DNA of 50,400 nucleotides from a virus. Shown here piece after piece: positions 3,879-27,357 of this stretch; the first letter of the stretch is position 1; each line of letters begins with the position of its first letter. A program made the translations under genes and the position numbers. The DNA lies in the IMG/VR virus record IMGVR_UViG_3300034651_000168. One strand, written 5' to 3'. The notes below the pieces were generated by a model. That model ran no database searches. It was not told where the DNA came from and saw only the letters and a list, made by a program, of their open reading frames with translations.

Positions 3879-4175
3879 ATGAGTAAAAAGAGAACTATAT
3901 CTAGTTTTAATGAGGTTGCCAACGATAGCGATATTAACAAAAATATTAATAGTAATAGTGATAACAAAGACGATATTTTAAAAAGCGTCACCAAAGATAA
4001 GAAACCGAAAGACCAGACGCATACGTTCAAAGGATACTGGTTAGAAAATAAAGTCGCGAATGAGATAGACCGAATGACAGACGGACACCCAAAAGGAACG
4101 AAATCGGAATTTATTAACCAAATCATCAAGAATTACTTGATAAGTGAAGGAAGATTACCAAGAGAGGAAGATTAA
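3879..4175 (+). CDS. ribbon-helix-helix centromere-binding partner of ParA (ParG/omega-like)
   Basis: Immediately downstream of parA. Disordered Lys/Asn-rich N-tail, then a strand-helix-helix pattern HTFKGYWLENKVANEIDRM...KSEFINQIIKNYL. Confidence 0.55.
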   Translation: MSKKRTISSFNEVANDSDINKNINSNSDNKDDILKSVTKDKKPKDQTHTFKGYWLENKVANEIDRMTDGHPKGTKSEFINQIIKNYLISEGRLPREED

Positions 4176-4505
4176 ATGTTTGATGGTGAAATGGTATCGG
4201 AACAGATCGCCAGAGAATACGCAAAAAAAGTCGATGAAGTCATTAAAAGGAAACTCATAGAATTATCCTATAAAGCCTTATACGAACGAGAATATAAGCT
4301 ATATGACATACTTCATGAAATCGAGGAAGGAAATATAAACGAGAAGAAGGTTGAACAATTCAAGGATAAGCTAAACGAGGAAGGATACCTTTTAAGCGTA
4401 GAAATGCCCGAAGCCGATATTTCATTTGATGAAAATAGTTACTATGCAAATATGAATCCGAATGAAATTAAGATAAAAATATATAAAGAAATACTATCAG
4501 ATTAG
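4176..4505 (+). CDS. hypothetical protein (last gene of the rep/par operon)
   Basis: ATG abuts the previous stop. A terminator follows. Confidence 0.65.
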   Translation: MFDGEMVSEQIAREYAKKVDEVIKRKLIELSYKALYEREYKLYDILHEIEEGNINEKKVEQFKDKLNEEGYLLSVEMPEADISFDENSYYANMNPNEIKIKIYKEILSD

Positions 4506-10690: not shown

Positions 10691-10781
10691 GACTTATTTA
10701 AAAGGAAATAAGACAAAATATTTTTCTACCTTCATGGTAGCACGAACGACAAAAAAATTCAAATGGAAAGGAAAGAATACC

Positions 10782-12767: not shown

Positions 12768-12770
12768 AAA

Positions 12771-12790
12771 GAGGGGGAGCGTTCCCCCTT
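12771..12790 (+). terminator. G5/C5 hairpin (family member)
   Basis: GAGGGGGA-GCGT-TCCCCCTT. Confidence 0.5.
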
Positions 12791-12821
12791 ATCCTAAAAA
12801 TCATTCAAAGGAGAATAAATA

Positions 12822-13955
12822 ATGAGCGAGAATAAGACAAAGTTTTCAACATCACTAGCAAAAATAAATGACGCATATTTCCCAATGATTGAAAGACAGC
12901 TTACAGGAAACGGAATCCAAATGGACGATTACAGCAAGCAATGCGTATTAAACGCTATTTCTTCTATCAACAACGCATTAGACCAGAAAGGAATCACCTG
13001 GAACGACCCACAACTAGACCAGTCGAACATAACGGAAATCCTATTAAACGTAGCGTCATTAAAACTCAATTCATCAGCAAGCCCGAACGAAGTTTATTTC
13101 CAAGTAAGAAACGTCAAATTTCAAAAGAGAAATGAAAATGGAAAGCTAGTAGACGATTGGCGCAAGCAGATTGAAATGGGAATCGAGGGAGACGGAAACG
13201 ATGCCATCTTATCGAGATTTGGACGAGATGTTGAAACCGTTCATCAGTTTTGGGTAGTTCGAGAAGATGACGACTTTCAATATCCATCGTATGAAGGAAT
13301 CGAAGTCACACCCCCGAAATGGACGCCAAAGGGAACAGGAAAGGCGGTCCGAGTAGTTTACCCTATCGAAAAGAGAAACGGACGCATTGAGTATCATATA
13401 TCCGAGCGTGAGGACGTTATTAAAAACCTTATCGCTCACGTAAAAAATAATATGATGAATGAAACGTTTGGACTTGCCGAAAGCAAATATAAAGCGACAC
13501 CTAAGCAGAAACAACAGATTGAAGATAAGAAAAATGAAGTCATCGACAGTATTAAAGCAAAAGGTTTAGATGGAGCGTTAAATGATAAAGAACTTCAAAA
13601 ATATATCAGCCCAGCTTGGAAAGACGAACAGTCGAAAGAATCCATGATATTACGGAAAATGAGAAATAACGTTGTGAAGCGGATTCCAAAGGATTTTGGC
13701 ATAGCATTACGAGAATTAAGCTATGAAAACAGCACGAACGATTACGAGAATCGAATCCGTAAAGACGTAAGCGAACAAGCCAACGGGGAAGTATTAGACA
13801 TTATCGACCACGAGGAAACAGTCGAGGAAGAAGAACCCGAGCCAGAAAAACCGAAAACAGAGGAAACAGAACGCCAAGAAAAAGAGAAACCAAAGGTGGT
13901 AACAAAAGAGGAACAACAAGAATCGAATCCATCAGAGAGTAAACCACCGTTCTAA
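12822..13955 (+). CDS. putative single-strand annealing protein (RecT-like) with an acidic SSB-like tail
   Basis: Sits between the ATPase and the MBL hydrolase. EVYFQVRN...IEMGIEGDG pattern. Glu/Lys/Pro-rich C-terminus ending ...SKPPF. Confidence 0.4.
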   Translation: MSENKTKFSTSLAKINDAYFPMIERQLTGNGIQMDDYSKQCVLNAISSINNALDQKGITWNDPQLDQSNITEILLNVASLKLNSSASPNEVYFQVRNVKFQKRNENGKLVDDWRKQIEMGIEGDGNDAILSRFGRDVETVHQFWVVREDDDFQYPSYEGIEVTPPKWTPKGTGKAVRVVYPIEKRNGRIEYHISEREDVIKNLIAHVKNNMMNETFGLAESKYKATPKQKQQIEDKKNEVIDSIKAKGLDGALNDKELQKYISPAWKDEQSKESMILRKMRNNVVKRIPKDFGIALRELSYENSTNDYENRIRKDVSEQANGEVLDIIDHEETVEEEEPEPEKPKTEETERQEKEKPKVVTKEEQQESNPSESKPPF

Positions 13956-13961
13956 AAACAC

Positions 13962-13985
13962 AGGGGGATTCAATTTCCCCCTTTT
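13962..13985 (+). terminator. G5/C5 hairpin plus T4
   Basis: AGGGGGA...TCCCCCT followed by TTT. Confidence 0.55.
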
Positions 13986-14006
13986 AGATAAAAAGGAGAT
14001 AAGACA

Positions 14007-14711
14007 ATGACATTAACATTCGAGCCAATTGCAAGTAGTAGCGCAGGAAACGCTTTTATCGTATCCGATGGAGAATCCAAGCTATTACTGGAATGCGGTT
14101 TGAAGTATCGAGATATACAGATCGCTTTAGACTTTCAAACATCACAGCTTGACGGTTGCCTTCTAACACATGAACATGACGACCATTCCCATTCAGTGAA
14201 GGACGTATTAAAAGCAGGAGTTAGCGTATATACGTCACAGGGAACGTCACACGCTTTAGGATTGAAGCACCATAGGTTAAAGTCTATCGAAGCACGAAAA
14301 CAGTTCAGAGTAGGCTCATTTACCGTTCTGCCATTCGAAACAGAACATGACGCAAACGAGCCTTTAGGATTCCTCATAGAAAGCAAAGGCGGAGAACGAT
14401 TGCTATTTGCTACCGACACCTATTTCATTCGATACCGATTTAAAGGAATCAATATTTTAGCGGTAGAGTGCAATTTTAGCGAGGAAATTTTAGAGCAGAA
14501 CATCATTGATGGAATCGTTCCATTGGGTATGAAAAGACGGTTGTTACAGTCTCATTTTAGCTTTGAGAATTATGTCGAGTTCCTTAAAGCAAATGATTTA
14601 AGTCAGCTAAAAGAAATTTGGTTGATTCATATGAGTAATAGAAATGCAGACGCAGAGAAATTCAAATCCGAGATACGAAAGATAACGGGAAAACCAGTCT
14701 ATATTCCATAA
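14007..14711 (+). CDS. MBL-fold metallo-hydrolase (probable nuclease partner)
   Basis: HxHxDH motif (LTHEHDDHSH). Confidence 0.8.
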   Translation: MTLTFEPIASSSAGNAFIVSDGESKLLLECGLKYRDIQIALDFQTSQLDGCLLTHEHDDHSHSVKDVLKAGVSVYTSQGTSHALGLKHHRLKSIEARKQFRVGSFTVLPFETEHDANEPLGFLIESKGGERLLFATDTYFIRYRFKGINILAVECNFSEEILEQNIIDGIVPLGMKRRLLQSHFSFENYVEFLKANDLSQLKEIWLIHMSNRNADAEKFKSEIRKITGKPVYIP

Positions 14712-14900: not shown

Positions 14901-15045
14901 AATCCAATGCGCTATGTGTCGAGAGTATAGCTTGAAAATAAAAGAAGGAATCCAAACCTGCAGAATATGCGGTCAAGGGCATGAGATAACATTCGAGGGA
15001 GAGTACATCATCATCAACCCATCTAATGAGCACAGGAAAGCATAG
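14893..15045 (+). CDS. zinc-ribbon mini-protein (50 aa, not in the ORF track)
   Basis: MAKIQCAMCREYSLKIKEGIQTCRICGQGHE... Overlaps the upstream stop. Confidence 0.5.
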   Translation: MAKIQCAMCREYSLKIKEGIQTCRICGQGHEITFEGEYIIINPSNEHRKA

Positions 15046-15058
15046 AGAGGGTGAGGAC

Positions 15059-15952
15059 ATGCGCAAAGACGCTTATTACTTTTCTCATGATACGAACGCA
15101 AGGAGAGACCCGAAGATATTAGCAATGATAAGCGAGTTCGGAGCGGAAGGTTACGGAATATATTGGATGGTTATAGAAATGTTGGCCGAACAGGAAGGAT
15201 ACAAGTTAGAACATAAAAAATGGGTATCGCATGCGATTGCTATGGAAACGCAATGCGAACGCAATACGGTTGTATCCTTCATCGAAAAAGGAATCGAGGA
15301 TTACGAATTATTTAAGTCAGATGGTGAATATTTTTGGAGCGAATCGTTACTAAGGCGAATGGAAATAAAAGATTCTAAACGAAAAAAGAGAAGTGAAGCA
15401 GGGAAGGCAGGAGCCTTGGCACGATGGGGAAAAGAGAAGAAAAAAGAAGATAACAAGGAATGGCAATCGCATGGCAATCGCATGGCAGACGCATACGAAC
15501 GCAATGCGGATTATAGCAAAGGAAAGGAAAGGAAAGAAAAGGAAAGTAAAGAAAAAGAGATACGTTCCAAATATAAATTTGAAACGCACCATATGAAATT
15601 AGCCGAACTACTCTTTAAGAAGATTCAAGAGAATAATCCTAATGCAAAGAAACCTAGCTTGGAATCATGGGCAAACACATTTCGTTTGATGATGGAACGA
15701 GACGAACGAGAAGGAAAAGAAATTCAGCACCTTATCTTATGGACGCAGCAACATCATTTTTGGTACAAGAACATCTTATCTGCAGATAAATTAAGAAAGC
15801 AGTACGACAGATTATTACTAGAAATGAAAGACGATAACAAAGCAAAAGTTATAGGTGGTGAAAGTAATGGAACACATCGGAGAAAGCCTAAAACGAGCTA
15901 TGAAGGAACAGACGTTGCCGAGTTGGACTTTAATAAGAGAAGGATATTGTGA
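15059..15952 (+). CDS. replisome organizer (DUF4373 N-terminal domain plus DnaD-like C-terminal region)
   Basis: AYYFSHDTNARRDPKILAM...GAEGYGIYWMVIEML matches the Lin1244/Lin1753-like N-terminal pattern. Start at 15059, behind SD GAGGGTGAGGA. Confidence 0.7.
   Translation: MRKDAYYFSHDTNARRDPKILAMISEFGAEGYGIYWMVIEMLAEQEGYKLEHKKWVSHAIAMETQCERNTVVSFIEKGIEDYELFKSDGEYFWSESLLRRMEIKDSKRKKRSEAGKAGALARWGKEKKKEDNKEWQSHGNRMADAYERNADYSKGKERKEKESKEKEIRSKYKFETHHMKLAELLFKKIQENNPNAKKPSLESWANTFRLMMERDEREGKEIQHLILWTQQHHFWYKNILSADKLRKQYDRLLLEMKDDNKAKVIGGESNGTHRRKPKTSYEGTDVAELDFNKRRIL
15229..15509 (+). repeat. repeat cluster inside the organizer gene (candidate lytic origin)
   Basis: Tandem 11-mers TGGCAATCGCA x2 and TGGCAGACGCA (15461-15493). 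An inverted copy GCATGCGATTGC is at 15229-15240. AACGCAATGCG-type repeats are at 15247-15269 and 15496-15509. Confidence 0.5.
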
Positions 15953-16703
15953 CGGTTGCGAATATCCTATAAAGGTTTACGAAACGGAAATATTAGGTGG
16001 ACCGAAAAAGGGAGAAAAAACCGAAGTCACATACGGTTGTAAATGCGAGGATATAAAGATTGCGAAACAGGCATTAGCGAACAAGCGAAAAGATGAAATT
16101 AGGAAAGTCAGAAAACATTTCGATTCCTATTCGCTTATCAGTAAAAAGTTGAAAAAAGCGACCTTGGAGAATTACAAGCCACAGAATAAATCGCAAGCTA
16201 TCGCAAAACGAAGCGTGGAAAAGTTTATTGATACGTTCGATTTAGACGAGCCGATGAACATTCTTTTTACAGGCGGTTATGGCGTAGGAAAAAGCCATCT
16301 AGCAAAAGCATTAACCGATGGAATCATGGAAAAAACGAACCCAAACACCGAACAGAAATACAGATCTATTTTTATTAGCGTTCCTAAGTTGTTGAGGAAA
16401 ATACGAGCAACTTATAATCCAGATTCAGATGTCAGTGAGGATGACATTTTCAGCGTTTTAGAAGATGTTGACGTTCTAGTTTTAGATGATATAGGAGCGG
16501 AAAGGCAAAGCGATTGGACAGACGAACGGTTATTTGACCTAATCGACAGCCGACAGGGAATGCATACGATTTACACAAGCAACTATGGAGTAGATGATTT
16601 GATGGAGTTGTTAGAGGAACGGAATTTTAGCCGAGTAGTGAACGAGGATACCTACATTATCAAAGTGGAAGGAAAGAACTACCGATTAAGCGATTTACAG
16701 TAA
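15867..16703 (+). CDS. DnaC/IstB-like AAA+ helicase loader
   Basis: Walker A GGYGVGKSHLA and Walker B VLVLDDIG, with an N-terminal Cys cluster. Overlaps the organizer gene by 86 nt. Confidence 0.8.
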   Translation: MEHIGESLKRAMKEQTLPSWTLIREGYCDGCEYPIKVYETEILGGPKKGEKTEVTYGCKCEDIKIAKQALANKRKDEIRKVRKHFDSYSLISKKLKKATLENYKPQNKSQAIAKRSVEKFIDTFDLDEPMNILFTGGYGVGKSHLAKALTDGIMEKTNPNTEQKYRSIFISVPKLLRKIRATYNPDSDVSEDDIFSVLEDVDVLVLDDIGAERQSDWTDERLFDLIDSRQGMHTIYTSNYGVDDLMELLEERNFSRVVNEDTYIIKVEGKNYRLSDLQ

Positions 16704-17480: not shown

Positions 17481-17789
17481 ATGGATTTAATTGAATTAGT
17501 GAAGAACGTAGAAAAATGGAGCATCGACAGAGGATTAGATAAAGCGGATAGTAGCAAGCAGTTCCAAAAAGTAGCAGAAGAATTTGGAGAAATTGCAAGA
17601 GCGTTAGCACGAGGGGATAAAGAGGGATTAAAGGACGGAATCGGTGATGAAATTGTAACGTTGATTATCCTAGCACAGCAGAACGGATTCACCTTAGAGG
17701 AATGCCTTCAAACAGCCTATGATGAAATCGCAGACCGAAAAGGCAAAATGATTGATGGGGTGTTCGTAAAGGAGAGCGATATAAAATGA
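17481..17789 (+). CDS. MazG-like nucleotide pyrophosphohydrolase
   Basis: EEFGE...D-x-IGD helix pair typical of the all-alpha NTP-PPase fold. Confidence 0.7.
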   Translation: MDLIELVKNVEKWSIDRGLDKADSSKQFQKVAEEFGEIARALARGDKEGLKDGIGDEIVTLIILAQQNGFTLEECLQTAYDEIADRKGKMIDGVFVKESDIK

Positions 17790-19807: not shown

Positions 19808-20358
19808 GTAAAGGCAAACGAGGAATGATTTTAGAAAATATGGTGGAGTATTCCAATCAGACCTATAAAAACAAGGGTATGGCACAAATTGATAAAGTGC
19901 CTACCCCTTGGAACGTTCATTACAACAAACAGACAGGAAAAGTAATTCGAGCGTTCCCACAGAAAAAAGGAACGGTGGATTTTGTAGGAATCAGTCATGG
20001 GAGAGGGATAGCGTTTGACGCAAAGAACACAAAGAATCGAACGAGATTCCCACTAGATAACGTAGAACAGCACCAAGTCGATTATTTAATAAACTTCCAA
20101 GACCAAGGAGGAATAGCGTTCTTTATCATCTTTTTTGAAAAGCATAATGAAGCATACTTCATGCCAATAGACAAGTTTATCGGTTGGTGGGAAGACCAAT
20201 TCGAGGGAGGGAGAAAGAGTATACCTTATGATTGGTTCACGTTCAATGTCGATAGGATTCATTCAAGAAATGGCGTTCTGTTAGATTATTTAACGAATTG
20301 TGAGCCACTTGAAACGGTAAAAGGAAAATCCATAGAAAGAGAGAAAAAGGGTGTGTGA
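19804..20358 (+). CDS. recU: Holliday junction resolvase RecU
   Basis: GMILENMVEYSNQTYKNKGMAQIDKVPTPW...VDFVGISHGRGIAFDAKNTKN...FPLDNVEQHQVDYL matches the RecU pattern. Confidence 0.8.
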   Translation: MSKGKRGMILENMVEYSNQTYKNKGMAQIDKVPTPWNVHYNKQTGKVIRAFPQKKGTVDFVGISHGRGIAFDAKNTKNRTRFPLDNVEQHQVDYLINFQDQGGIAFFIIFFEKHNEAYFMPIDKFIGWWEDQFEGGRKSIPYDWFTFNVDRIHSRNGVLLDYLTNCEPLETVKGKSIEREKKGV

Positions 20359-20359
20359 G

Positions 20360-20827
20360 ATGGTAACAGTCCAAGATAAAGCGTTGAAATCGAAGTATAT
20401 AAAACGAATCGAAAAACATTTGCGGCAATATACAACCTACAAAATAGGAATGATGACGCTACAAAAACAACTAGACCACATCATGCCGAACGTTACAGCA
20501 ACTTATAAATTATCCGAGGGAAGCAACGGAACGTTTGAAATAACGAGCGATACCGAGGATTATGCGGTGGATAGAATCGAGAGTAAGAAAGCCTTAATGC
20601 TTCATGAAGATATAGAACGTTATGGAATCATTATCGAATCCATAGACCAAGCGGTTAGCGATTTAGACGAGATGGAGCGGAAGTTTGTTGAAGTAAGATA
20701 TATCAATCGAAAGACCATTGCACAAACGTCTATCGAGTTAGGATACAGCGAGAAGCACATTTTTAATTTACGTCATCAAGTCATGGATAAGTTGCTTATT
20801 TCGTTACGAGGATTAACACAAGAATAA
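20360..20827 (+). CDS. ArpU-family / sigma-70 region-4-like late transcription regulator
   Basis: C-terminal RYINRKTIAQTSIELGYSEKHIFNLRHQVMDKL HTH. Positioned just before the late genes. Confidence 0.65.
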   Translation: MVTVQDKALKSKYIKRIEKHLRQYTTYKIGMMTLQKQLDHIMPNVTATYKLSEGSNGTFEITSDTEDYAVDRIESKKALMLHEDIERYGIIIESIDQAVSDLDEMERKFVEVRYINRKTIAQTSIELGYSEKHIFNLRHQVMDKLLISLRGLTQE

Positions 20828-20847: not shown

Positions 20848-21081
20848 ATGAGAAAAATGTTTTATCTTATAGCAGGATTAATTATCTTATTAACCCTCTA
20901 TCTTTCATATTCAGCATATCAAGACGGACGGACGATTGAACGGTTGGAAAATAAAGTCGAGACACTAGAAGAATCGAACAAGGAATTGAAACAGGACAAG
21001 GAGGAATTAGAGGTTGATTATTCATCAGTAAGAGATAGGTTATGGAGCGTACAGAACTATATTGAAAAACATGAGAACTAG
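20848..21081 (+). CDS. membrane-anchored coiled-coil protein
   Basis: N-terminal transmembrane segment FYLIAGLIILLTLYLSY followed by heptad-rich sequence. Confidence 0.65.
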   Translation: MRKMFYLIAGLIILLTLYLSYSAYQDGRTIERLENKVETLEESNKELKQDKEELEVDYSSVRDRLWSVQNYIEKHEN

Positions 21082-21130: not shown

Positions 21131-21203
21131 AAAAGGTGATAGTATAAGAATTAGCAAGTTTCCCCCAGTTCAAGCTATCACCTTTTAGGTGGTGGCTTTT
21201 TTT
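21131..21203 (+). ncRNA. structured RNA element at the early/late junction carrying an anti-initiation-region sequence
   Basis: AAAAGGTGATAG (21131-21142) pairs perfectly with CTATCACCTTTT (21175-21186). The loop contains ATTAGCAAGTTTCCCCC (21150-21166). A terminator follows. Confidence 0.5.
21174..21203 (+). terminator. intrinsic terminator 34 nt upstream of the first late gene
   Basis: 10-bp stem GCTATCACCT-TTT-AGGTGGTGGC followed by T7. Confidence 0.8.
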
Positions 21204-21236: not shown

Positions 21237-22403
21237 ATGAAGATTTATAAGAAAAACAACGTATTCGAGGAAGCATTAGAGCGCATACGTTTTCTGTTCG
21301 ATGAATTTGAGGAAGTATGGGTATCTTTTAGCGGTGGGAAAGATAGCACCGTTATTTACAACCTTGCTAAAATCGTAGCAAGAGAAAAGGGGAAATTGCC
21401 CTTAAAGGTTGTTTTCCTAGACCAAGAAGCGGAATACGAGCACACGATTGAATTAGTCAGAGAAATTATGTATGACGAGGACGTAGAGCCATACTGGATT
21501 CAAGTTCCTATTAAGCTATTTAACGCCACATCAACACAAGATGAATGGTTGCTATGTTGGGACGAGGATAACCCCGATAAATGGATACGAGAGAAAGACC
21601 CTATTTCCTATAAAGAAAATCATTGGGGAACAGATCGTTTCGCAGACTTCTTCTTAAAGTTCATGAATGCGGAATCGAAGGCAAGAGACAACATGAAAAT
21701 GTGCTACCTAACAGGAGTACGCACCGAGGAATCACCTTCACGTTACATTGGATTAACTACTTCACCAACTTATAAATGGATTACCTGGGGAAAGAAAAAT
21801 CAGTATAACAAAAATACGTTTTCCTTCCACCCTATTTATGATTGGTCATACACAGACGTATGGAAAGCGATTCATGATAACGGTTGGGATTACAACAAGA
21901 TTTACGATTATCAATATCAGCATGGAGTAAGAACGCAGGATATGCGAGTGTCGAATCTTCACCACGAAACCGCAGTCCATCACTTGTTTTTCTTGCAGGA
22001 AGTCGAGCCAGACACCTACCAAAGATTAACGCAGCGAGTAAAAGGAATGGACACCGCAGGGAAGCTAGGGAGAGATGATTACTTTGTTACTGAACTTCCT
22101 TTTATGTTTAAGGATTGGAAGGAATACCGAGATTACTTGCTAGAAAAATTAATTACGAACGAGGAACACCGAGAGAAAATGCGAAAAGACTTCCACCGAA
22201 CGGAGAAGAAATATATTCCTGCGGTTAAAGCGAATTCTATTTATAAGACGCATATCAGTATTATTCTCACAAATGATTATCATGGTACGAAGCTAGGAAA
22301 CGCAGAAAACAGATGGCGTTTGCAGTTACGAGATTACGAGAGGGAGCGGAAACGAAATGCAATGGCTAAAAGAAAAGCTAAACGAGAGCAACGACAAAAA
22401 TAA
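21237..22403 (+). CDS. IbrA-like PAPS-reductase/PP-loop ATPase with DUF3440-like C-terminal domain
   Basis: PP-loop VSFSGGKDST. C-terminal MRVSNLHHETAVHHLFFLQEVEPDTYQRL pattern. Start at M17 of the track ORF. Confidence 0.65.
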   Translation: MKIYKKNNVFEEALERIRFLFDEFEEVWVSFSGGKDSTVIYNLAKIVAREKGKLPLKVVFLDQEAEYEHTIELVREIMYDEDVEPYWIQVPIKLFNATSTQDEWLLCWDEDNPDKWIREKDPISYKENHWGTDRFADFFLKFMNAESKARDNMKMCYLTGVRTEESPSRYIGLTTSPTYKWITWGKKNQYNKNTFSFHPIYDWSYTDVWKAIHDNGWDYNKIYDYQYQHGVRTQDMRVSNLHHETAVHHLFFLQEVEPDTYQRLTQRVKGMDTAGKLGRDDYFVTELPFMFKDWKEYRDYLLEKLITNEEHREKMRKDFHRTEKKYIPAVKANSIYKTHISIILTNDYHGTKLGNAENRWRLQLRDYERERKRNAMAKRKAKREQRQK

Positions 22404-23019
22404 ATTCCTAAACGAGTTACGAGAGTTTGTTCATGAACATTCACCAGTAAAACATAATCCAGTAGACCTTGTTCGATGGGTACCATACACAAAAGTTCAA
22501 GCGAACGATTATAACCCAAACCAAGTTGCTAAAAATGAAATGAGTTTACTTCACACAAGCATTAAGCATGATGGATACACACAGCCTATCGTTACGGTTT
22601 ATGACGAAAACCTAGATAAATACGTTGTCGTTGACGGATTCCACCGTTACAGCGTTATGCGGCACTATGAGGATATACGAAAAAGGAATAAAGGATTATT
22701 GCCAATCGTGGTTATCGAGAAGGATATTAACGACAGAATGGCGAGTACGATTCGACACAACCGAGCGAGAGGGAAGCATAGCGTTCAAGGAATGTCGAAC
22801 ATCGTATTTAACATGCTAGATAACGGTTGGACGGACGCAGAGATTATTCACGAACTAGGAATGGAGTATGAGGAATTAATTCGATTGAAACATATTACAG
22901 GATTCAGCAAGCTATTCGAGAACGCCGAGTATTCCAAGGCGTGGGAAACCAAAAAGCAATTAAAGCTAAAAAAGGAATATAAAGAAGAACAAAAAGAAAA
23001 GGAGAATGAGAATGGTTAA
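22357..23019 (+). CDS. IbrB-like ParB/Srx N-terminal domain protein
   Basis: VVVDGFHRY and STIRHNRARGKH motifs. Overlaps the IbrA-like gene by 47 nt. Confidence 0.65.
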   Translation: MQWLKEKLNESNDKNKFLNELREFVHEHSPVKHNPVDLVRWVPYTKVQANDYNPNQVAKNEMSLLHTSIKHDGYTQPIVTVYDENLDKYVVVDGFHRYSVMRHYEDIRKRNKGLLPIVVIEKDINDRMASTIRHNRARGKHSVQGMSNIVFNMLDNGWTDAEIIHELGMEYEELIRLKHITGFSKLFENAEYSKAWETKKQLKLKKEYKEEQKEKENENG

Positions 23020-23668
23020 AAAATGGGATTATGGCGGAGCACATGATAGATACCCGATTGAAGAAAATGAGGTATGGAGCGTAGACGATGGGAAAGGGAA
23101 GCTAAAACCGCATGACTTATACGAGCCTTTACCCGATTTTATGAAGGAAGCGGATATGGTTATTGTTGACCCTCCTTGGAACTTATCGAACGTCAATACA
23201 TTCTATACGAAAGCAGATAAGCGAGGGGAACATACGAAAACATTTAACGAGTTCTATCAGCAGTTATTCAAACAGATAGACGTTATCGACCCGAACATTT
23301 TATATACCGAGATTGGGAAGCAGAACGTCAATAAGTTTGTTGAGGAATTTGAGAAAAGATTCCCTTATGTTCAAGTATGGCAAATAACGTACTACAAGAA
23401 GCACCCTTGCTATTTCGTGAGAGGGAGCAAACATTCACCTTTAGAATCGTTCGATTATGAAGGAATGGACGAATGGGATGCCATTCTAAAAGCGTTGGAA
23501 ATCGAGGATTATTCAACCGTAGCAGACCTTTGTATGGGGAGAGGTTTAGTTGCGGTTGGCGCATACGATAACGATAAACGATTTGCAGGAACAGAATTAA
23601 ACAAGAAACGTTTGGCAGTCACCATTGAAAAAATAGCGAAAAAAGGCGGTAAATGGAAAAAAGAATAA
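23006..23668 (+). CDS. DNA methyltransferase (DPPW catalytic motif)
   Basis: VIVDPPWN motif IV precedes a SAM loop DLCMGRGLVAVG (beta-type order). Confidence 0.65.
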   Translation: MRMVKKWDYGGAHDRYPIEENEVWSVDDGKGKLKPHDLYEPLPDFMKEADMVIVDPPWNLSNVNTFYTKADKRGEHTKTFNEFYQQLFKQIDVIDPNILYTEIGKQNVNKFVEEFEKRFPYVQVWQITYYKKHPCYFVRGSKHSPLESFDYEGMDEWDAILKALEIEDYSTVADLCMGRGLVAVGAYDNDKRFAGTELNKKRLAVTIEKIAKKGGKWKKE

Positions 23669-23681
23669 AAGGGGAAGGACA

Positions 23682-23861
23682 ATGAAAAATAAAACCGTTG
23701 TTAAACTTAGAAAAGCGAAAGAAGAAGGAATCCTAACCAATCAACAATTCAATACATTAAAAGGACAAGTTCTAAGCGGTCGTGAACGAGCGGCCGCCAA
23801 AGGATTTATGTCAATCATGAAATCAAATAAAAAAGAAAGAGAAAGGAAAGAAAACAATTGA
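23682..23861 (+). CDS. small basic hypothetical protein (59 aa, not in the ORF track)
   Basis: SD GGGGAAGGA. MKNKTVVKLRKAKEEGILTNQQFNTLKGQVLSG... Confidence 0.45.
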   Translation: MKNKTVVKLRKAKEEGILTNQQFNTLKGQVLSGRERAAAKGFMSIMKSNKKERERKENN

Positions 23862-24619
23862 AAATTGAAAAGAGAAATATCGACCTAATCAAACCGTATT
23901 GGAGAAACCCACGAAAGAATGAAAATGCAGTCGAAGCGGTGAAAGAATCTATTAAGCGTTACGGATACACGCAACCGATTGTCGTTGATAAGGATAACGT
24001 GATTATTGCAGGACACACACGCTATAAAGCGTTGCGTCAATTAGGATATAAAAATATTGCAGTCGTTCTATTGGATATAGACGAGGATAAGGCAAAGCAA
24101 TATCGAATCGCAGATAATAAAACAGCAGAAATGTCCGAGTGGGACGATGACCTTCTCATGTACGAATTAAGGGAAATCGAGGAACTAGAAGATATGACCA
24201 TCTTCTTTGACGATGGCGAACTAGACAGCCTATTAGATATACGAGATGAAGATTATGATTTTGACGATGACTTTGACGAGGAAGAAAGACGGGAAGAATT
24301 AGAAGAAGAAGCAAGAGCGACAGTCGTTGCTAGTCTAGGAACAGACGTAGATAAAGAAGATGAAGAAGTTCAAGAACAGATCGAGGAAAAAGTAGAAGCG
24401 CAAGTCAACGAGGAAATGAAAGAAGATATTCGAGAGAAAATGAAAGAAGAAAACGAGCGCATTAAAGAGCGAGAAAAAGAAATGAAAAACCAATTTAAAG
24501 AACGGACAGAGGACAGAGAGGACGATTACATTGAAATTCAGTGCCCACACTGCGATGAAAAATATATTCTTTCAAGGAGCGAACTACTTAGAGCCAACAA
24601 AGTACGAAGAACAGTATAA
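23858..24619 (+). CDS. second ParB-like N-terminal domain protein with acidic linker and C-terminal zinc knuckle
   Basis: PYWRNPRKN...GYTQPIVVDKDNVIIAGHTRYKAL pattern, as seen in ParB-methylase fusions. TTG start. Confidence 0.65.
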   Translation: MKIEKRNIDLIKPYWRNPRKNENAVEAVKESIKRYGYTQPIVVDKDNVIIAGHTRYKALRQLGYKNIAVVLLDIDEDKAKQYRIADNKTAEMSEWDDDLLMYELREIEELEDMTIFFDDGELDSLLDIRDEDYDFDDDFDEEERREELEEEARATVVASLGTDVDKEDEEVQEQIEEKVEAQVNEEMKEDIREKMKEENERIKEREKEMKNQFKERTEDREDDYIEIQCPHCDEKYILSRSELLRANKVRRTV

Positions 24620-25145
24620 CAACGAGATTTGCGAGCGAGAGAATAAAGAAATCCAGCGAATTATTAATAGCAATATTGATAACGATATTAATTTAATTCT
24701 TACAGACGTTGGTTGCGGAACAGGTTTAGGAAGTGAATTAATAGATAACCGTCATCAATACGTGGGGATTGACCGTTCGAAAAAGTCTATCGAGCATTGT
24801 AGGCAGGAAGATAAAAAAGGGATATTTATTAACGCAAACGCAGAGGAAATAATTCAGTACGTAGATTCGATTAACCCGATATTCCTTTTTTCGATAGATT
24901 ACTTGGATAACAACACGATTCAGAAGTTTATCGAGAAAACTGATAATATTTTTATAGCAGTTCACTATAATATGCCATATTTGAGCCGTACTTCTGTATA
25001 CAGTGGGAGAAAGTCTCTTTATCGACTGTTACACCCTAAAAGAAAAAGAAACGCTATGAGAGCATTATTTGAGCGTTTTAACGCAAGTACATTTAGATTA
25101 TTAGACGAGGATTATTATTACGTGACCATTATTAAAAAGGATTGA
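24531..25145 (+). CDS. class I SAM-dependent methyltransferase
   Basis: Motif I LTDVGCGTGLG. Overlaps the ParB-like ORF by 89 nt in another frame; the start is uncertain. Confidence 0.6.
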   Translation: MKFSAHTAMKNIFFQGANYLEPTKYEEQYNNEICERENKEIQRIINSNIDNDINLILTDVGCGTGLGSELIDNRHQYVGIDRSKKSIEHCRQEDKKGIFINANAEEIIQYVDSINPIFLFSIDYLDNNTIQKFIEKTDNIFIAVHYNMPYLSRTSVYSGRKSLYRLLHPKRKRNAMRALFERFNASTFRLLDEDYYYVTIIKKD

Positions 25146-25429
25146 GCGGAATGAATAGGCAGAAATTTGATGATTACATTCAAAAAGTAAGATGGCAGGA
25201 AGCAAAAACGTATCGAAAAACAGCACCGCATGAGTATACGATTCGATGGTGGAGAAAAGACTTGGAGCAGGAATTTATAGACGTTGTTCTCTTTATCCGA
25301 GAGCATGGCGTAAAAGAGAAGTTTTTCAGCAAGACGTTCATCTATTTTTATCATGGTGATTACAAATATTGGACAATGGGAGACCCTTTAGAAACGACTT
25401 GGGTATTAAACCGAGCATTAGTAAATTGA
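25142..25429 (+). CDS. hypothetical protein
   Basis: ORF overlaps the methyltransferase stop. Start is either TTG 25142 or ATG 25151. Confidence 0.6.
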   Translation: MSGMNRQKFDDYIQKVRWQEAKTYRKTAPHEYTIRWWRKDLEQEFIDVVLFIREHGVKEKFFSKTFIYFYHGDYKYWTMGDPLETTWVLNRALVN

Positions 25430-25442
25430 AGGGGGGATAACA

Positions 25443-25964
25443 TTGGCAAAACGAGGGAGACCCGAGAAATTAACGGACGATATAAGAAAAGATATTATTA
25501 AGGTTATCCGTAGCGGAAACTATATCGAGACAGCCTGCGCTTATGTAGGAATCAACAAGACAACCTTCTATGACTGGTTAAAAAAAGGAGCAAGAGAAAA
25601 GCAACGAGTAGAGGATAATCCAAGAGCCAAAGTCAGAAAGGATTTGCAGAAATATGTCGATTTTTCCGAGGAAGTAGACAAAGCACTTGCACATGCAGAA
25701 ATCCGAGATGTTGCGATTATAGGGAAAGCAGCAGAAAAAGAATGGCAAGCGGCCGCATGGAGATTGGAAAGAAAGTTCCCCGACCGATGGGGAAGAAAGG
25801 ACAAACATGCATTGGAGCATACGGGAAAAGAAGGTGGTCCGATAGAAACAAGTCAAAAACAGGAATTGGACTTGTCCAACTTGACGGACAAGGAGTTGGA
25901 GCAACTTGAAAACATCATTACAAAGTCTACCGACACTCAAACAGATACAACAGGAGAAAGCTAG
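25443..25964 (+). CDS. terS: terminase small subunit
   Basis: N-terminal HTH ...IETACAYVGINKTTFYDWLKKG. Lies directly upstream of terL. TTG start behind SD GGGGGGA. Confidence 0.75.
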   Translation: MAKRGRPEKLTDDIRKDIIKVIRSGNYIETACAYVGINKTTFYDWLKKGAREKQRVEDNPRAKVRKDLQKYVDFSEEVDKALAHAEIRDVAIIGKAAEKEWQAAAWRLERKFPDRWGRKDKHALEHTGKEGGPIETSQKQELDLSNLTDKELEQLENIITKSTDTQTDTTGES

Positions 25965-27357
25965 AAGGAAACTTATTGACTTCACAACTTACACGAAGCC
26001 CGAATATGACGTGAACTGGCACCATCGAAACCTTGGAGACGCATTAGATAAAATGGCAAGACGAGAAATAAAGCGTTTGATGGTTTTTATGCCACCACGT
26101 CATGGGAAATCAGAACTTGTTTCAAGGCGATTCCCTGCCTATATTCTAGGTAGAAATCCGAACGCAAACATCATAGCAACGAGTTATAGCGGTGGTCTTG
26201 CAAGTAGCATGAACAGAGACGTTCAACGTATTATCGACAGCGAGGAATATTACGAGTTATTCCCCGAAACACAATTAAGCGGTTCTAACAAGACGATAGG
26301 GAAAGGAAACTATATCCGAAATTCAGATATGTTTGAAATAGTAGGATATGAAGGCGGTTATGTATCAGCAGGTGTTGGCGGTGGAATCACAGGACGTGGA
26401 GCGGATTTTGCTATTATTGATGACCCAGTTAAGAACAGGAAGGACGCAGAAAGTAAAGCGTATCGAGATTCAACCTATGATTGGTTCACTTCCACGCTAT
26501 ACACACGTTTGGAAAAAGACGCTTGTGTACTCATAACGCTCACACGTTGGCATGAGGACGACCTAGCAGGGAGACTATTAGCGAACGCAAAGAATAATCC
26601 AGAAGCCGATCAATGGCACGTTATAAGCTATCCTGCGATATATAACGAAAACGCTAAAAACCTAGACCCAACCGACCCAAGAGAACACGACCAAGCGTTA
26701 TGGCCTGCGAAATATGACCGTAAAGCATTAGGGGCGATTAAGTCCACCGTAGGAAGTTACGAATGGAGCGCACTCTATGACCAAAATCCTTCACCTCCTA
26801 GCGGTAGTATCGTTCAACGTGATTGGATTAAATATTATAAGTTCCTTCCTAGTAAATTTGATGAAGTCATTCAATCATGGGATTTTGCCTTTGATGGAAA
26901 AGAAAAGTCATCATATGTCGTTGGTCAAGTATGGGGAAGAATCGGAGCAGACAAATATCTCATAGACCAAGTAAGGGATAGAATGAACTTTACGGAATCT
27001 ATACGAGCGTTAAAAAACATGTCAGCAAAACACCCGAGAGCAAAAGCGAAACTAATTGAAAATAAGGCGAACGGTCCAGCGATTATTTCAACCATGAAAA
27101 AAGAAATAAGCGGATTAATACCTGTTCAACCCGATGGAACGAAAGTCGAACGCTTATATGCGGTTACACCACAGTTTGAAGCAGGAAACGTTTATATCCC
27201 CGACCCTAGCACAGCACCATGGGTAGGAGATTACGTTGAGGAACTAACATCATTCCCTAGTTCAGCAAATGATGACCAAGTCGATACAACGACACAAGCC
27301 TTGAATAACCTAGATAAACGCAAGAAAGGTGCGAAAGTTACTGTACGAAGTTATTAA
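25906..27357 (+). CDS. terL: terminase large subunit
   Basis: Walker A-like MPPRHGKSE, Walker B FAIIDDP, and a C-terminal nuclease region ending ...DDQVDTTTQAL. Confidence 0.85.
   Translation: MKTSLQSLPTLKQIQQEKARRKLIDFTTYTKPEYDVNWHHRNLGDALDKMARREIKRLMVFMPPRHGKSELVSRRFPAYILGRNPNANIIATSYSGGLASSMNRDVQRIIDSEEYYELFPETQLSGSNKTIGKGNYIRNSDMFEIVGYEGGYVSAGVGGGITGRGADFAIIDDPVKNRKDAESKAYRDSTYDWFTSTLYTRLEKDACVLITLTRWHEDDLAGRLLANAKNNPEADQWHVISYPAIYNENAKNLDPTDPREHDQALWPAKYDRKALGAIKSTVGSYEWSALYDQNPSPPSGSIVQRDWIKYYKFLPSKFDEVIQSWDFAFDGKEKSSYVVGQVWGRIGADKYLIDQVRDRMNFTESIRALKNMSAKHPRAKAKLIENKANGPAIISTMKKEISGLIPVQPDGTKVERLYAVTPQFEAGNVYIPDPSTAPWVGDYVEELTSFPSSANDDQVDTTTQALNNLDKRKKGAKVTVRSY

What the first reader, a model, noticed from the sequence alone, without database searches (positions are those of the whole stretch)
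21237..25429. 4.2-kb block between the late regulator and terminase: IbrA/IbrB-like pair, a second ParB-like protein and two methyltransferases
Seven consecutive, partly overlapping genes make up the block.
- A PP-loop/PAPS-reductase-like ATPase with a DUF3440-like C-terminus (IbrA-like).
- A ParB/Srx-domain protein with DGFHR and RHNRARGKH motifs (IbrB-like).
- A DPPW-motif DNA methyltransferase.
- A 59-aa basic protein.
- A second ParB-like N-terminal-domain protein with a hyper-acidic linker and a CxxC knuckle.
- A class I SAM methyltransferase.
- A 95-aa unknown protein.

IbrA/IbrB pairs are known from comparative genomics to travel in phages and islands, but their biochemical role is unresolved. 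The PP-loop enzyme suggests adenylation or thiolation chemistry, and ParB-like domains are NTP-dependent DNA clamps or nucleases. Coupling them to two methylases just upstream of the packaging genes points to a multi-step DNA modification or self-protection (anti-restriction) pathway acting on DNA about to be packaged. This is a candidate for new biochemistry.
Basis: partly seen in the sequence, partly recalled or inferred. Interest (0 to 1): 0.7.

Follow-up and report, generated by a model that had tools for sequence, protein, structure and literature searches.

The report
Phage IbrA/IbrB–ParB–methylase cassette before terminase
The block is a real, recurrent phage gene cassette at the head of the packaging operon: a widespread enzyme pair of unknown function (IbrA/IbrB) with a second ParB-like protein, plus optional DNA-methylase add-ons. 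It is an ordinary member of a known but biochemically unsolved group, not evidence of a new seven-step pathway.

Summary

- **IbrA (g1)** is a PAPS-reductase-fold PP-loop protein with a DUF3440 tail. Its nearest solved relatives are adenylyltransferases (CysD, FAD synthase). It has no invariant cysteine, so CysH-like reduction and DndC-like thiolation are unlikely.
- **IbrB (g2)** and **g5** are ParB-fold proteins.
- **g3** is a beta-class DNA amino-methyltransferase.
- **g6** is a generic class I SAM methyltransferase.
It is repeatedly fused to class I methyltransferases, and once to a PD-(D/E)XK nuclease, so g6 and g7 are a split two-domain enzyme.

Across four close relatives and 76 viral loci, IbrA–IbrB is the core. 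A g5-like ParB joins it in about half the loci. DNA methylases appear in only about 10%. The cassette sits directly upstream of large terminases from at least three families.

The "seven-gene multi-step pathway" reading is therefore weakened. A modular, late-expressed, DNA-directed accessory cassette fits best. What IbrA/IbrB actually do remains unknown.

The parts
20351..20827 (+). Upstream flank: sigma/ArpU-like late transcriptional regulator
   Evidence: phrog_36 at 5.9e-17 and a weak Sigma70_r4 hit. An orthologue sits in the same position in L108.
21172..21198 (+). Intrinsic-terminator-like hairpin (12-bp stem plus T-run) about 40 nt before the IbrA start. It marks the 5' boundary of the unit.
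   Evidence: No other + strand terminator-like site lies between 21200 and 26500.
21237..22403 (+). g1, IbrA-like: PP-loop ATP-pyrophosphatase/adenylyltransferase fold (PAPS_reduct) with a helical DUF3440 C-terminal domain
   Evidence: - Pfam and PHROG hits.
- AF2 model with pLDDT 89.6.
- Foldseek: FAD synthase, CysH, CysD and FMN adenylyltransferase over about 240 N-terminal residues.
- Profile against PDB: CysD 1.5e-8, FAD synthase 1.3e-7.
- No invariant Cys.
22357..23019 (+). g2, IbrB-like: ParB/Srx-fold NTP-binding domain with DGFHR and RHNRARGKH motifs, plus a helical, HTH-like C-terminus. It overlaps g1 by 47 nt.
   Evidence: phrog_2159 at 3e-76. The profile hits ParB, Noc, SerK and SbnI. 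28 columns are invariant across 26 homologues.
23006..23668 (+). g3: small beta-class (motif IV DPPW, then motif I DLCMGRG) N6-adenine/N4-cytosine DNA methyltransferase
   Evidence: Profile against PDB: DpnA-type MTase 5.6e-10, CcrM, MboIIA. PADLOC MTase_II 1e-6. Invariant DPP and D..G.G...G.E.N..R.
23682..23861 (+). g4: 59-aa basic ORF with a weak SHOCT-like pattern. It is unique to this window and its gene status is uncertain.
   Evidence: pI 10.6 and a purine-rich (RBS-like) upstream stretch. SHOCT E = 0.055. No homologue in any of the loci labelled with it.
23858..24619 (+). g5, second ParB-fold protein (ParB2): N-terminal ParB domain of the type usually fused to phage methyltransferases, then an acidic linker and a single C-terminal CPHC
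   Evidence: ParB_N 5e-10. phrog_620 at 1.4e-47 and phrog_498 (ParB-MTase fusion, N-terminal part) at 1.3e-39. PADLOC MTase_II PDLC03229, residues 8-157 of 436, at 6e-27.
24531..25145 (+). g6: class I SAM-dependent methyltransferase with no amino-methyltransferase motif. It overlaps g5 by 89 nt.
   Evidence: Methyltransf_25, _31 and _11. Orthologues in L001, L107 and L108.
25142..25429 (+). g7: small alpha/beta domain of a large family with no Pfam entry (invariant PH.Y ... YWTMG ... T...N). It is the split-off partner domain of g6-type methyltransferases.
   Evidence: - 3512 representative clusters at E <= 1e-3.
- AF2 pLDDT 95.2.
- No PDB fold match.
- Fusions to class I MTases in both orders, and to a PD-(D/E)XK nuclease.
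25443..27357 (+). Downstream flank: small terminase (25443-25964) and large terminase (25906-27357), contiguous with the block
   Evidence: phrog_4102 at 4.9e-44. TerL orthologue in L108 at 3e-221. 13-nt gap after g7.

Best explanation
The block is a modular accessory cassette transcribed as the first part of the late (packaging) operon. It is not one linear seven-step pathway.

**Core: IbrA + IbrB + ParB2 (g1, g2, g5)**
- IbrB is a ParB-fold NTP-binding protein with an HTH-like tail. It most likely binds DNA and recruits or gates IbrA.
- IbrA is a cysteine-less PP-loop enzyme of the CysD / FMN-adenylyltransferase / DndC branch. It most likely uses ATP to adenylate, or otherwise activate, an oxygen on a nucleic-acid substrate, releasing PPi. 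The substrate is probably a DNA phosphate.
- The result would be a non-sulfur covalent mark or activated intermediate on replicated phage DNA before packaging.
- ParB2 is a second NTP-gated DNA-loading or nicking subunit, of the kind normally fused to phage methyltransferases.

**Optional add-ons in this phage**
- g3 is an orphan beta-class N6A/N4C DNA methyltransferase, giving classical methylation-based protection against restriction.
- g6 + g7 is a split two-domain enzyme: a class I SAM methyltransferase plus a novel recognition domain.

**Shown versus inferred**
- Shown: folds, motifs, conservation, gene order, co-occurrence and fusions.
- Inferred: DNA as the substrate, adenylation chemistry, physical complexes, timing, and any anti-restriction benefit.
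For: 1. Domain and fold assignments are solid.
2. IbrA keeps an intact SGGKDS PP-loop, D..E, G.R..ES..R and P..DW across homologues down to about 22-31% identity. Its nearest solved relatives are adenylyltransferases.
3. IbrA-IbrB adjacency:
   - IbrB lies within 3 genes in 66 of 76 viral loci, and is the next gene in 53 of 72.
   - The two genes overlap by 47 nt here.
   - IbrB is unusually conserved, 50-73% identity in 24 of 25 homologues and 33% in the mycobacteriophage one.
4. A g5-like ParB lies nearby in 40 of 76 loci. It is invariant in the four closest relatives. In one contig variant, a single 417-aa gene replaces the 215- and 197-aa ParB-fold genes that follow IbrA in its sister contig.
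5. Position:
   - A terminator-like hairpin precedes g1, and no terminator-like site lies before the terminase.
   - At least 24 of 35 downstream long ORFs are large terminases of the Terminase_3/6, GpA and TerL_ATPase types.
   - Mycobacteriophage Phlyer has ParB - x - x - IbrA - IbrB - TerL.
6. ParB-fold fusions to N6_N4 and class I SAM methyltransferases are common in phages, and some bind ATP (PMC12704722). A B. cereus ParB-methylase nicks DNA (PMC5512222).
7. g7 is fused to class I methyltransferases in both orders (7 of 10 long family members), and once to a PD-(D/E)XK nuclease. That pattern fits a nucleic-acid-recognition module.
Against: - No experiment or paper shows any substrate for IbrA/IbrB.
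- The only functional datum on record is activation of prophage eib genes in E. coli (Sandt et al. 2002, seen only as a reference; the paper is not held).
- IbrA/IbrB also occur away from terminases, after the lysis module in S. thermophilus and C. scindens phages, and as chromosomal ybdNM in E. coli. A packaging-time role therefore cannot be general.
- Neighbours in other loci include small-molecule-type enzymes: GNATs, an EctC-like cupin fused to IbrB, arginine and SAM decarboxylases. These would also fit a non-DNA substrate.
- ParB-fold proteins can be kinases of small molecules (SerK and SbnI hits).
- The HTH in IbrB is read from sequence only.
Confidence: 0.4

Rival explanations
1. One reading: all seven genes form one integrated multi-step DNA hypermodification or self-protection pathway. 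IbrA activates, IbrB and ParB2 load, and the two methylases finish the product.
For: The genes are tightly packed and probably co-transcribed. The same order, g1-g2-g3-g5-g6-g7, recurs in L001 and L107 at about 56-69% IbrA identity.
Against: - g3, g6 and g7 are dispensable in close relatives. L109 has only g1-g2-g5, and L108 lacks g7.
- Amino-methyltransferase-motif ORFs lie near IbrA in only about 8-10 of 76 loci.
- g3-like genes are near in 5 of 76 loci and g6-like in 3 of 76.
- g7 and its methyltransferase fusions occur widely without IbrA/IbrB.
Confidence: 0.1
2. IbrA/IbrB are regulators ("co-activators of prophage gene expression") that boost late transcription. IbrB would act as a KorB- or DndB-like NTP-switched DNA-binding regulator, with IbrA as its enzymatic modulator.
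For: - The only reported phenotype is activation of prophage eib genes (Sandt et al. 2002, cited). The SEED subsystem name is carried in phage annotations.
- The cassette lies right after the late regulator and a terminator-like hairpin.
Against: - The genes lie downstream of the terminator, in the same unit as the genes they would activate.
- A conserved, intact PP-loop catalytic core is unexplained by a purely regulatory role.
- The position is upstream of terminases of unrelated families rather than next to regulators.
Confidence: 0.15
3. IbrA/IbrB/ParB2 are packaging accessories. They would take part in pac/cos recognition, or in processing or capping of DNA ends made by terminase (for example 5'-phosphate adenylylation).
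For: - Strong positional link to large terminases of several families.
- In mycobacteriophage Phlyer, IbrB overlaps the TerL start and no TerS is annotated in that stretch.
- CysD and FMN adenylyltransferase relatives adenylate phosphate or sulfate oxygens (established knowledge of these enzymes; similarity shown).
Against: - This window and most loci keep a separate TerS-sized gene.
- The pair also occurs far from terminases and in bacterial chromosomes.
- DNA methylases and HNH genes also gather at this site. From general knowledge, the early/late boundary is a common slot for accessory genes, which was not tested here.
Confidence: 0.1
4. IbrA/IbrB act on a small molecule or nucleotide rather than on DNA. 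They would make or destroy a nucleotide-derived compound, as an adenylyltransferase plus a ParB/Srx-fold kinase (analogous to CysD plus APS kinase), to manipulate host metabolism or defence signalling.
For: - Nearest solved relatives of IbrA are small-molecule adenylyltransferases.
- The IbrB profile also hits SerK and SbnI kinases.
- Neighbours in other loci include GNATs, an EctC-like cupin fused to IbrB, and arginine and SAM decarboxylases.
Against: - Association with ParB2 and DNA methyltransferases.
- The DndC/DndB and BrxP precedents act on DNA.
- The HTH-like tail of IbrB (sequence only).
Confidence: 0.15
5. g1 is a sulfur-metabolism auxiliary gene (cysH, PAPS reductase), as it is usually labelled in viromes. 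Alternatively, the pair is a phage Dnd-like phosphorothioation system.
For: The Pfam name PAPS_reduct and the PHROG label "phosphoadenosine phosphosulfate reductase". Weak DndC and BrxP hits.
Against: - No invariant cysteine, and none in the C-terminal tail.
- Scores fall far below the NCBIfam cut-offs: cysH 21.2 against 165.1, PAPS_reductase 18.1 against 254.2, DndC 24.9 against 290.4.
- No DndA, DndD or DndE equivalents in the block or its flanks.
- Obligate pairing with a ParB-fold protein.
Confidence: 0.03

Closest known systems
IbrA/IbrB (E. coli ECOR-9) and YbdN/YbdM (E. coli K-12); PHROGs 2302 and 2159
   Same: - PAPS_reduct + DUF3440 protein followed by a ParB-fold protein, adjacent and co-directional.
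- The same pair is annotated in Flavobacterium, Mycobacterium, Streptococcus, Microbacterium and Bacillus phages: 223 phage records.
   Different: - Here the pair is joined by a second ParB-fold gene and two methyltransferase modules, and sits in front of the terminase.
- The E. coli pairs are chromosomal or island genes, and ybdNM is under LysR/H-NS control.
- Function is unknown in all cases.
DndC/DndB of the Dnd phosphorothioation system (also SspD/SspE and BREX type 4 BrxP)
   Same: Same pairing of folds, a PAPS-reductase-like PP-loop ATPase with a ParB-superfamily protein, acting on DNA.
   Different: - IbrA lacks the DndC cysteine dyad and Fe-S ligands (DndC features from PMC10853773).
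- There is no cysteine desulfurase and no DndD/DndE.
- Scores are far below the family cut-offs.
- It may work like DndC in the adenylation step but cannot be filed as Dnd.
Phage ParB-methyltransferase fusions (phrog_498; B. cereus Bce_0392; ParB-CTPase-N6_N4_Mtase and -Methyltransf_23 fusions surveyed in PMC12704722)
   Same: - g5 matches the N-terminal ParB part of these fusions.
- It lies between an N6_N4-type methyltransferase (g3) and a class I SAM methyltransferase (g6), the two methyltransferase-type partner domains reported as enriched in phage fusions.
   Different: The domains are encoded as separate genes. g5 carries its own acidic linker and a CPHC tail.
CysD (ATP sulfurylase small subunit) and eukaryotic-type FMN adenylyltransferase / FAD synthase
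   Same: Closest solved structures and sequences to the IbrA catalytic domain. All have an intact PP-loop and cysteine-independent adenylyl transfer.
   Different: IbrA has an extra helical DUF3440 domain and an obligate ParB-fold partner. Its substrate is unknown.

Membership tests
IbrA/IbrB (YbdN/YbdM) pair | One protein with a PAPS_reduct PP-loop domain followed by DUF3440 | tested here: met
   PF01507 at 62.6 bits (cut-off 22.5) and PF11922 at 34.2 bits (cut-off 25). phrog_2302 at 7e-87.
IbrA/IbrB (YbdN/YbdM) pair | Adjacent co-directional ParB/Srx-fold partner with DGxHR and RHNRARG motifs | tested here: met
   g2 overlaps g1 by 47 nt and both motifs are present. phrog_2159 at 3e-76. The motifs are invariant in 26 homologues.
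IbrA/IbrB (YbdN/YbdM) pair | Activates prophage gene expression (the phenotype that named the family) | not testable with these tools
   Known only from Sandt et al. 2002, seen as a reference. The paper is not held.
Dnd phosphorothioation (DndBC) | DndC-type PP-loop protein with conserved cysteines for sulfur transfer or an Fe-S cluster | tested here: not met
   No invariant Cys in alignment A1. TIGR03183 scores 24.9 bits against a cut-off of 290.4.
Dnd phosphorothioation (DndBC) | Linked DndA cysteine desulfurase and DndD/DndE pair | tested here: not met
   None among the seven block genes or their flanks. None among the window ORFs scanned.
Assimilatory PAPS/APS reductase (CysH) auxiliary metabolic gene | Catalytic C-terminal cysteine and equivalog-level similarity to CysH | tested here: not met
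   Cys occurs only at residues 107 and 156, and neither is invariant. TIGR00434 scores 21.2 against 165.1, and TIGR02057 scores 18.1 against 254.2.
Canonical ParABS partition ParB | TIGR00180-level ParB with an HTH_ParB domain and an adjacent parA | tested here: not met
   TIGR00180 scores 18.8 (g2) and 35.6 (g5) against a cut-off of 58.45. No HTH_ParB hit. The only ParA-like gene is at 3083-3859, about 18-20 kb upstream.
Phage ParB-methyltransferase fusion proteins | ParB N-terminal domain and methyltransferase domain in one polypeptide | tested here: not met
   g5 matches only the ParB part: phrog_498 positions 33-184 of 633, and PDLC03229 positions 8-157 of 436. The methyltransferases are separate genes, so this is a split arrangement.
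Beta-class N6-adenine/N4-cytosine DNA methyltransferase (N6_N4_Mtase) | Motif IV (D/S)PP(Y/W) upstream of the SAM-binding motif I, with family-level similarity | tested here: inconclusive
   DPPW at 55 and DLCMGRG near 175 are invariant in homologues. Pfam is below its cut-off, 16 bits against 26.7. The profile against PDB gives DpnA-type MTase 5.6e-10, CcrM and MboIIA. Methylation itself is untested.
Class I SAM methyltransferase fused to the g7 domain (family not in Pfam) | A class I methyltransferase domain and a PH.Y...YWTMG domain that act together | tested here: met
   g6 and g7 are adjacent with a 4-nt overlap. Fused forms exist in both orders: L016, L018, P0211, P0213, P0237 and P0240; and P0219, P0225 and P0263.

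The most novel reading that the evidence does not exclude
IbrA-IbrB, with the second ParB-fold protein, is a very widespread phage and mobile-element system. It would install a new, sulfur-independent, adenylation-driven covalent mark on DNA (backbone phosphate or DNA ends) just before packaging. That would be a DNA-modification chemistry distinct from methylation, phosphorothioation, deazaguanine insertion and base hypermodification. The g7 domain would be a new nucleic-acid-recognition fold shared by methyltransferases and nucleases.
Probability: 0.2. Interest if true: 0.85.

Novelty: new member of a known kind. Interest (0 to 1): 0.45.

Why it matters
- **Scale of the unknown.** IbrA-like genes are very common: 3044 database clusters at E <= 1e-10 and 223 sequenced phages. 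They are routinely labelled "PAPS reductase", and from general knowledge such hits are often counted as sulfur-metabolism auxiliary genes in viromes. The absence of a catalytic cysteine and the obligate ParB-fold partner argue that this label is wrong for this family.
- **A cleaner experimental target.** The comparative picture here defines what to test: an IbrA-IbrB core, a frequent second ParB, optional methylases and GNATs, and a strong preference for the slot before the terminase. Cultivable phages already carry the cassette (Phlyer, Hendrix, CHPC1230, PBC5, FCL-2).
- **A side result.** The g7 family is a large, confidently folded domain with no Pfam entry, tied to methyltransferases and a nuclease.
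- **The limit.** This particular window is an uncultivated contig with no known host. It adds no unique handle on the problem.

Tried and rejected
- **Near-identical DNA.** Searches of the block and of the first 25 kb against 50,697 phage records found nothing.
- **Host identification.** The one genome-contig scan with IbrA found no close relative in isolate genomes. The best hits were MAGs at 57% identity or less, so the host stays unknown.
- **Solved structures.** Single-sequence PDB searches for IbrA and IbrB found nothing. Only profiles gave hits.
- **g7 fold.** Foldseek against PDB gave nothing below E = 0.1. Against BFVD it gave one unnamed viral protein.
- **Literature.** No mechanistic study of IbrA/IbrB turned up. 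Maindola et al. 2014 and Sandt et al. 2002 are not held. The 2025 ParB-fold survey and the 2024 Dnd reappraisal do not mention IbrA/IbrB.
- **Rejected readings.**
  - CysH auxiliary metabolic gene and Dnd membership, because cysteines and partner genes are absent.
  - ParABS partition role for g2 or g5, because scores are below cut-off, there is no HTH_ParB hit, and the parA-like gene is 18-20 kb away.
  - MT-A70 assignment for g3, which is N6_N4-type.
- **g7 specificity.** I considered that g7 might be specific to IbrA/IbrB. This was rejected because homologues sit alone in cellular islands next to GmrSD, HIRAN, Bro-N and recombinases.
- **Not possible here.** Multimer structure prediction (IbrA:IbrB:ParB2, g6:g7), and per-protein Pfam tables for all neighbours (only family counts were obtainable).

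Full report
**1.

Seven co-directional ORFs occupy 21237-25429. Junctions run from a 13-nt gap to an 89-nt overlap, and each start has a purine-rich stretch in front that I read as RBS-like.
- g1: SGGKDS.
- g2: DGFHR and RHNRARGKH.
- g3: DPPW.
- g4: pI 10.6.
- g5: 43% Asp+Glu linker and a CPHC.
- g6: GCGTG.

Profile searches confirm the domain calls.
- **g1** has PAPS_reduct and DUF3440 above Pfam cut-offs and matches phrog_2302 at 7e-87.
- **g2** scores ParB_N just under the cut-off (26.1 against 26.3 bits), but matches phrog_2159 at 3e-76. A profile of its homologues hits ParB and Noc structures at about 3e-6.
- **g5** is a clear ParB_N protein.
- **g6** is a class I SAM methyltransferase.
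- **g3** has no Pfam hit at threshold. A profile of seven homologues hits DpnA-type adenine DNA methyltransferase (5.6e-10), CcrM and MboIIA. Its motif order is IV then I, so it is a beta-class N6A/N4C enzyme, not MT-A70.

The flanks are as described: RecU, a sigma/ArpU-like regulator, then the block, then TerS, TerL and portal.

**2. Setting**

The window appears to be a complete 50.4-kb metagenomic contig (P0001) of a siphovirus-like phage, with its real genes on the + strand. It has no near DNA relative among sequenced phages and no close relative in isolate genomes.

A 12-bp-stem terminator-like hairpin with a T-run lies at 21172-21198, about 40 nt before the g1 start. No other + strand terminator-like site follows until beyond the terminase. 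The block therefore reads as the first part of the late packaging operon.

**3. What IbrA is**

The AlphaFold model is confident (pLDDT 89.6). Its first 240 or so residues superpose on FAD synthase, CysH, CysD and FMN adenylyltransferase. The helical DUF3440 part has no structural match. A sequence profile hits CysD (1.5e-8) and FAD synthase (1.3e-7) ahead of PAPS reductases (4e-3).

Across homologues down to 22-31% identity, the PP-loop and the nucleotide-binding motifs are invariant, but no cysteine is. The window protein has only C107 and C156. NCBIfam scores for cysH, PAPS reductase and DndC are 10-fold or more below their cut-offs.

IbrA is best described as a cysteine-independent ATP pyrophosphatase/adenylyltransferase. 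It is not a reductase or a sulfurtransferase.

**4. What IbrB and g5 are**

IbrB is strikingly conserved: 50-73% identity in 24 of 25 aligned homologues, 33% in the mycobacteriophage one, and 28 invariant columns. It has derived versions of the ParB boxes. The correspondence NDYNPN / DGFHR / RHNRARG to boxes I-III is my reading from sequence. Its C-terminal segment has a helix-turn-helix-like pattern, which was not tested structurally. Its profile also touches the ParB-fold kinases SerK and SbnI.

g5 matches the N-terminal ParB part of phage ParB-methyltransferase fusions: phrog_498 at 1.3e-39 and PADLOC MTase_II PDLC03229 at 6e-27.

A 2025 survey reports that ParB-CTPase folds in phages are frequently fused to N6_N4 and Methyltransf_23 domains, that these fusions are enriched in prophages, and that the fold can bind ATP, CTP or GTP (PMC12704722). 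A B. cereus ParB-methylase nicks DNA (PMC5512222). In this window, g5 sits between exactly these two kinds of methyltransferase, as separate genes.

**5. g7 is not a bystander**

g7 has no Pfam, PHROG, NCBIfam or PADLOC hit. It nonetheless belongs to a large family: 3512 representative clusters at E <= 1e-3. The family has invariant PH.Y, R..G, YWTMG and T...N positions. The predicted fold is very confident (pLDDT 95.2) and has no PDB match. Only one unnamed viral match exists in BFVD.

Of ten long family members scanned, seven are fusions to class I SAM methyltransferases. Four have g7 at the N-terminus. Three have it at the C-terminus, the same order as g6 then g7 here. One is a fusion to a PD-(D/E)XK nuclease (also L016 and L018).

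g6 + g7 is therefore a split two-domain enzyme. Sharing one domain between methyltransferases and a nuclease suggests a nucleic-acid-recognition role, which is an inference. g7 homologues also occur alone in cellular islands next to GmrSD, HIRAN, Bro-N and recombinases.

**6. Comparative genomics of the cassette**

The four closest relatives are:

| Locus | Gene order |
|---|---|
| L001 | ParB-g1-g2-g3-g5-g6-g7-TerS-TerL |
| L107 | g1-g2-g3-g5-g6-g7, then a different TerS, a Terminase_3-type TerL and an SPP1-type portal |
| L108 | RecU-regulator-...-g1-g2-g3-g5-g6-TerS-TerL |
| L109 | RecU-g1-g2-g5-...-TerS |

So g1-g2-g5 is invariant, g3, g6 and g7 are facultative, and g4 is unique to this window.

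In 76 IMG/VR loci with an IbrA gene:

| Feature near IbrA | Loci |
|---|---|
| IbrB within 3 genes | 66 of 76 |
| IbrB as the next gene | 53 of 72 |
| g5-like ParB | 40 of 76 |
| g7-like gene | 23 of 76 |
| g3-like methyltransferase | 5 of 76 |
| g6-like methyltransferase | 3 of 76 |

- An amino-methyltransferase motif occurs in a neighbouring ORF in only about 8-10 loci.
- Other recurrent neighbours are GNAT acetyltransferases and a second, shorter PAPS_reduct paralogue.
- In two loci, IbrB is fused to an EctC-like cupin.
- In one contig variant, a single 417-aa gene replaces the 215- and 197-aa ParB-fold genes that follow IbrA in its sister contig.

**7. Position**

Of 35 loci with a long ORF within seven genes downstream, at least 24 have a large terminase there. 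The Pfam counts are Terminase_6N 18, Terminase_3 17 (these two overlap), GpA 5 and TerL_ATPase 1. My rough estimate is that a randomly placed gene would fall this close to TerL in only about one locus in ten; I ran no permutation control.

Mycobacteriophage Phlyer shows ParB-x-x-IbrA-IbrB-TerL at its left end. In Microbacterium and Bacillus phages the gene sits at the extreme right end of the genome.

The link is not universal. In S. thermophilus CHPC1230 and C. scindens phiCs5676-1, the pair follows the lysis module. E. coli K-12 carries it as chromosomal ybdNM under a LysR repressor (PMC9068703).

**8. Interpretation**

The data fit a modular, late-expressed, DNA-directed accessory cassette. 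The core is IbrA-IbrB with a second ParB-fold protein. Interchangeable add-ons join it; here these are an orphan DNA methyltransferase and a split methyltransferase + g7 enzyme.

The most likely chemistry for the core is IbrB-guided, ATP-dependent adenylation or activation of a nucleic-acid oxygen by IbrA. This rests on analogy with CysD, FMN adenylyltransferase and DndC. It would be without sulfur, because the cysteines and the desulfurase are missing. This step is inferred, not shown. I give the overall reading 0.4.

Rivals that remain open:
- a regulatory role, the only published phenotype (0.15);
- a small-molecule or nucleotide role (0.15);
- a packaging or DNA-end role (0.10);

The cysH auxiliary-gene and Dnd readings are essentially excluded (0.03).

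**9. Novelty and score**

IbrA/IbrB pairs in phages and ParB-methyltransferase combinations are both known kinds, and this window is a further member. Several points are absent from the literature I could search: the three-gene core, the preference for the slot before the terminase across terminase families, the cysteine-less catalytic domain, and the g7 family with its methyltransferase and nuclease fusions. They sharpen an old open question, since the function of IbrA/IbrB has been unknown since 2002. They do not answer it, and the window itself is an uncultivated phage with no known host. Interest: 0.45.

Noticed in passing
window 21172-21198 (+): A strong terminator-like hairpin (12-bp stem, T-run) lies only about 40 nt upstream of the IbrA start, after the late regulator and a 77-aa ORF (20848-21081). 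It may be the early-operon terminator, or a read-through or antitermination point controlling the late operon.
   Followed up: partly
window 25142-25429; P0192-P0339; L016:1235-2029; L018:5672-6469: g7 defines a large domain family with no Pfam entry (3512 representative clusters). It has a confident novel fold and is fused to class I SAM methyltransferases in both orders, and once to a PD-(D/E)XK nuclease.
   Followed up: yes
window 3083-3859 (+), with 1278-2204 and 15026-16703: A ParA-like partition ATPase (phrog_164, 7.8e-60) lies in the early region, near DnaD-like replication-initiator genes and a DnaC-like helicase loader. No integrase was seen among the ORFs scanned. The phage might be maintained as a plasmid prophage. 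The ORFs just downstream of parA (3879-4505) have no family hit.
   Followed up: partly
window 10734-14711 and 17481-17789 (+): A recombination module is present: an SbcC-like ATPase (677 aa), a RecT-like annealase and a metallo-hydrolase. A MazG-like nucleotide pyrophosphatase lies at 17481-17789.
   Followed up: no
L074:3049-4071, L077:8314-9255; contigs of P0077; several IMG/VR loci: IbrB is fused to an EctC-like cupin in two loci. GNAT acetyltransferases recur directly upstream of IbrA. There are single cases of pyruvoyl arginine decarboxylase, SAM decarboxylase and aldehyde dehydrogenase inside IbrA neighbourhoods. These enzymes hint at amine or acyl chemistry around IbrA/IbrB.
   Followed up: partly
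contigs of P0077 (no DNA held): In one contig, a single 417-aa ParB_N gene replaces the 215-aa and 197-aa ParB-fold genes (IbrB-like and ParB2-like by position) that follow IbrA in its sister contig. This may be a natural fusion or a frameshift difference.
   Followed up: no
L004 (Mycobacterium phage Phlyer) 1-5236: Phlyer, a cluster B1-type mycobacteriophage (cluster assignment from memory), has ParB-gp2-gp3-IbrA-IbrB directly abutting an intein-containing TerL. No small terminase is annotated in that stretch.
   Followed up: no
window 23682-23861 (+): g4 (59 aa, pI 10.6) has a SHOCT-like pattern (E = 0.055). It is absent between the g3 and g5 orthologues in L001, L107 and L108, so it is an insertion specific to this phage.
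   Followed up: partly
L045:656-3591; L058, L059, L067, L071, L073: Some loci carry two PAPS_reduct-type genes around IbrB. They have either two IbrA paralogues or a shorter 260-280-aa ORF upstream of IbrA. Four PAPS_reduct hits occurred among the neighbour ORFs, but which ORFs hit could not be checked individually.
   Followed up: no
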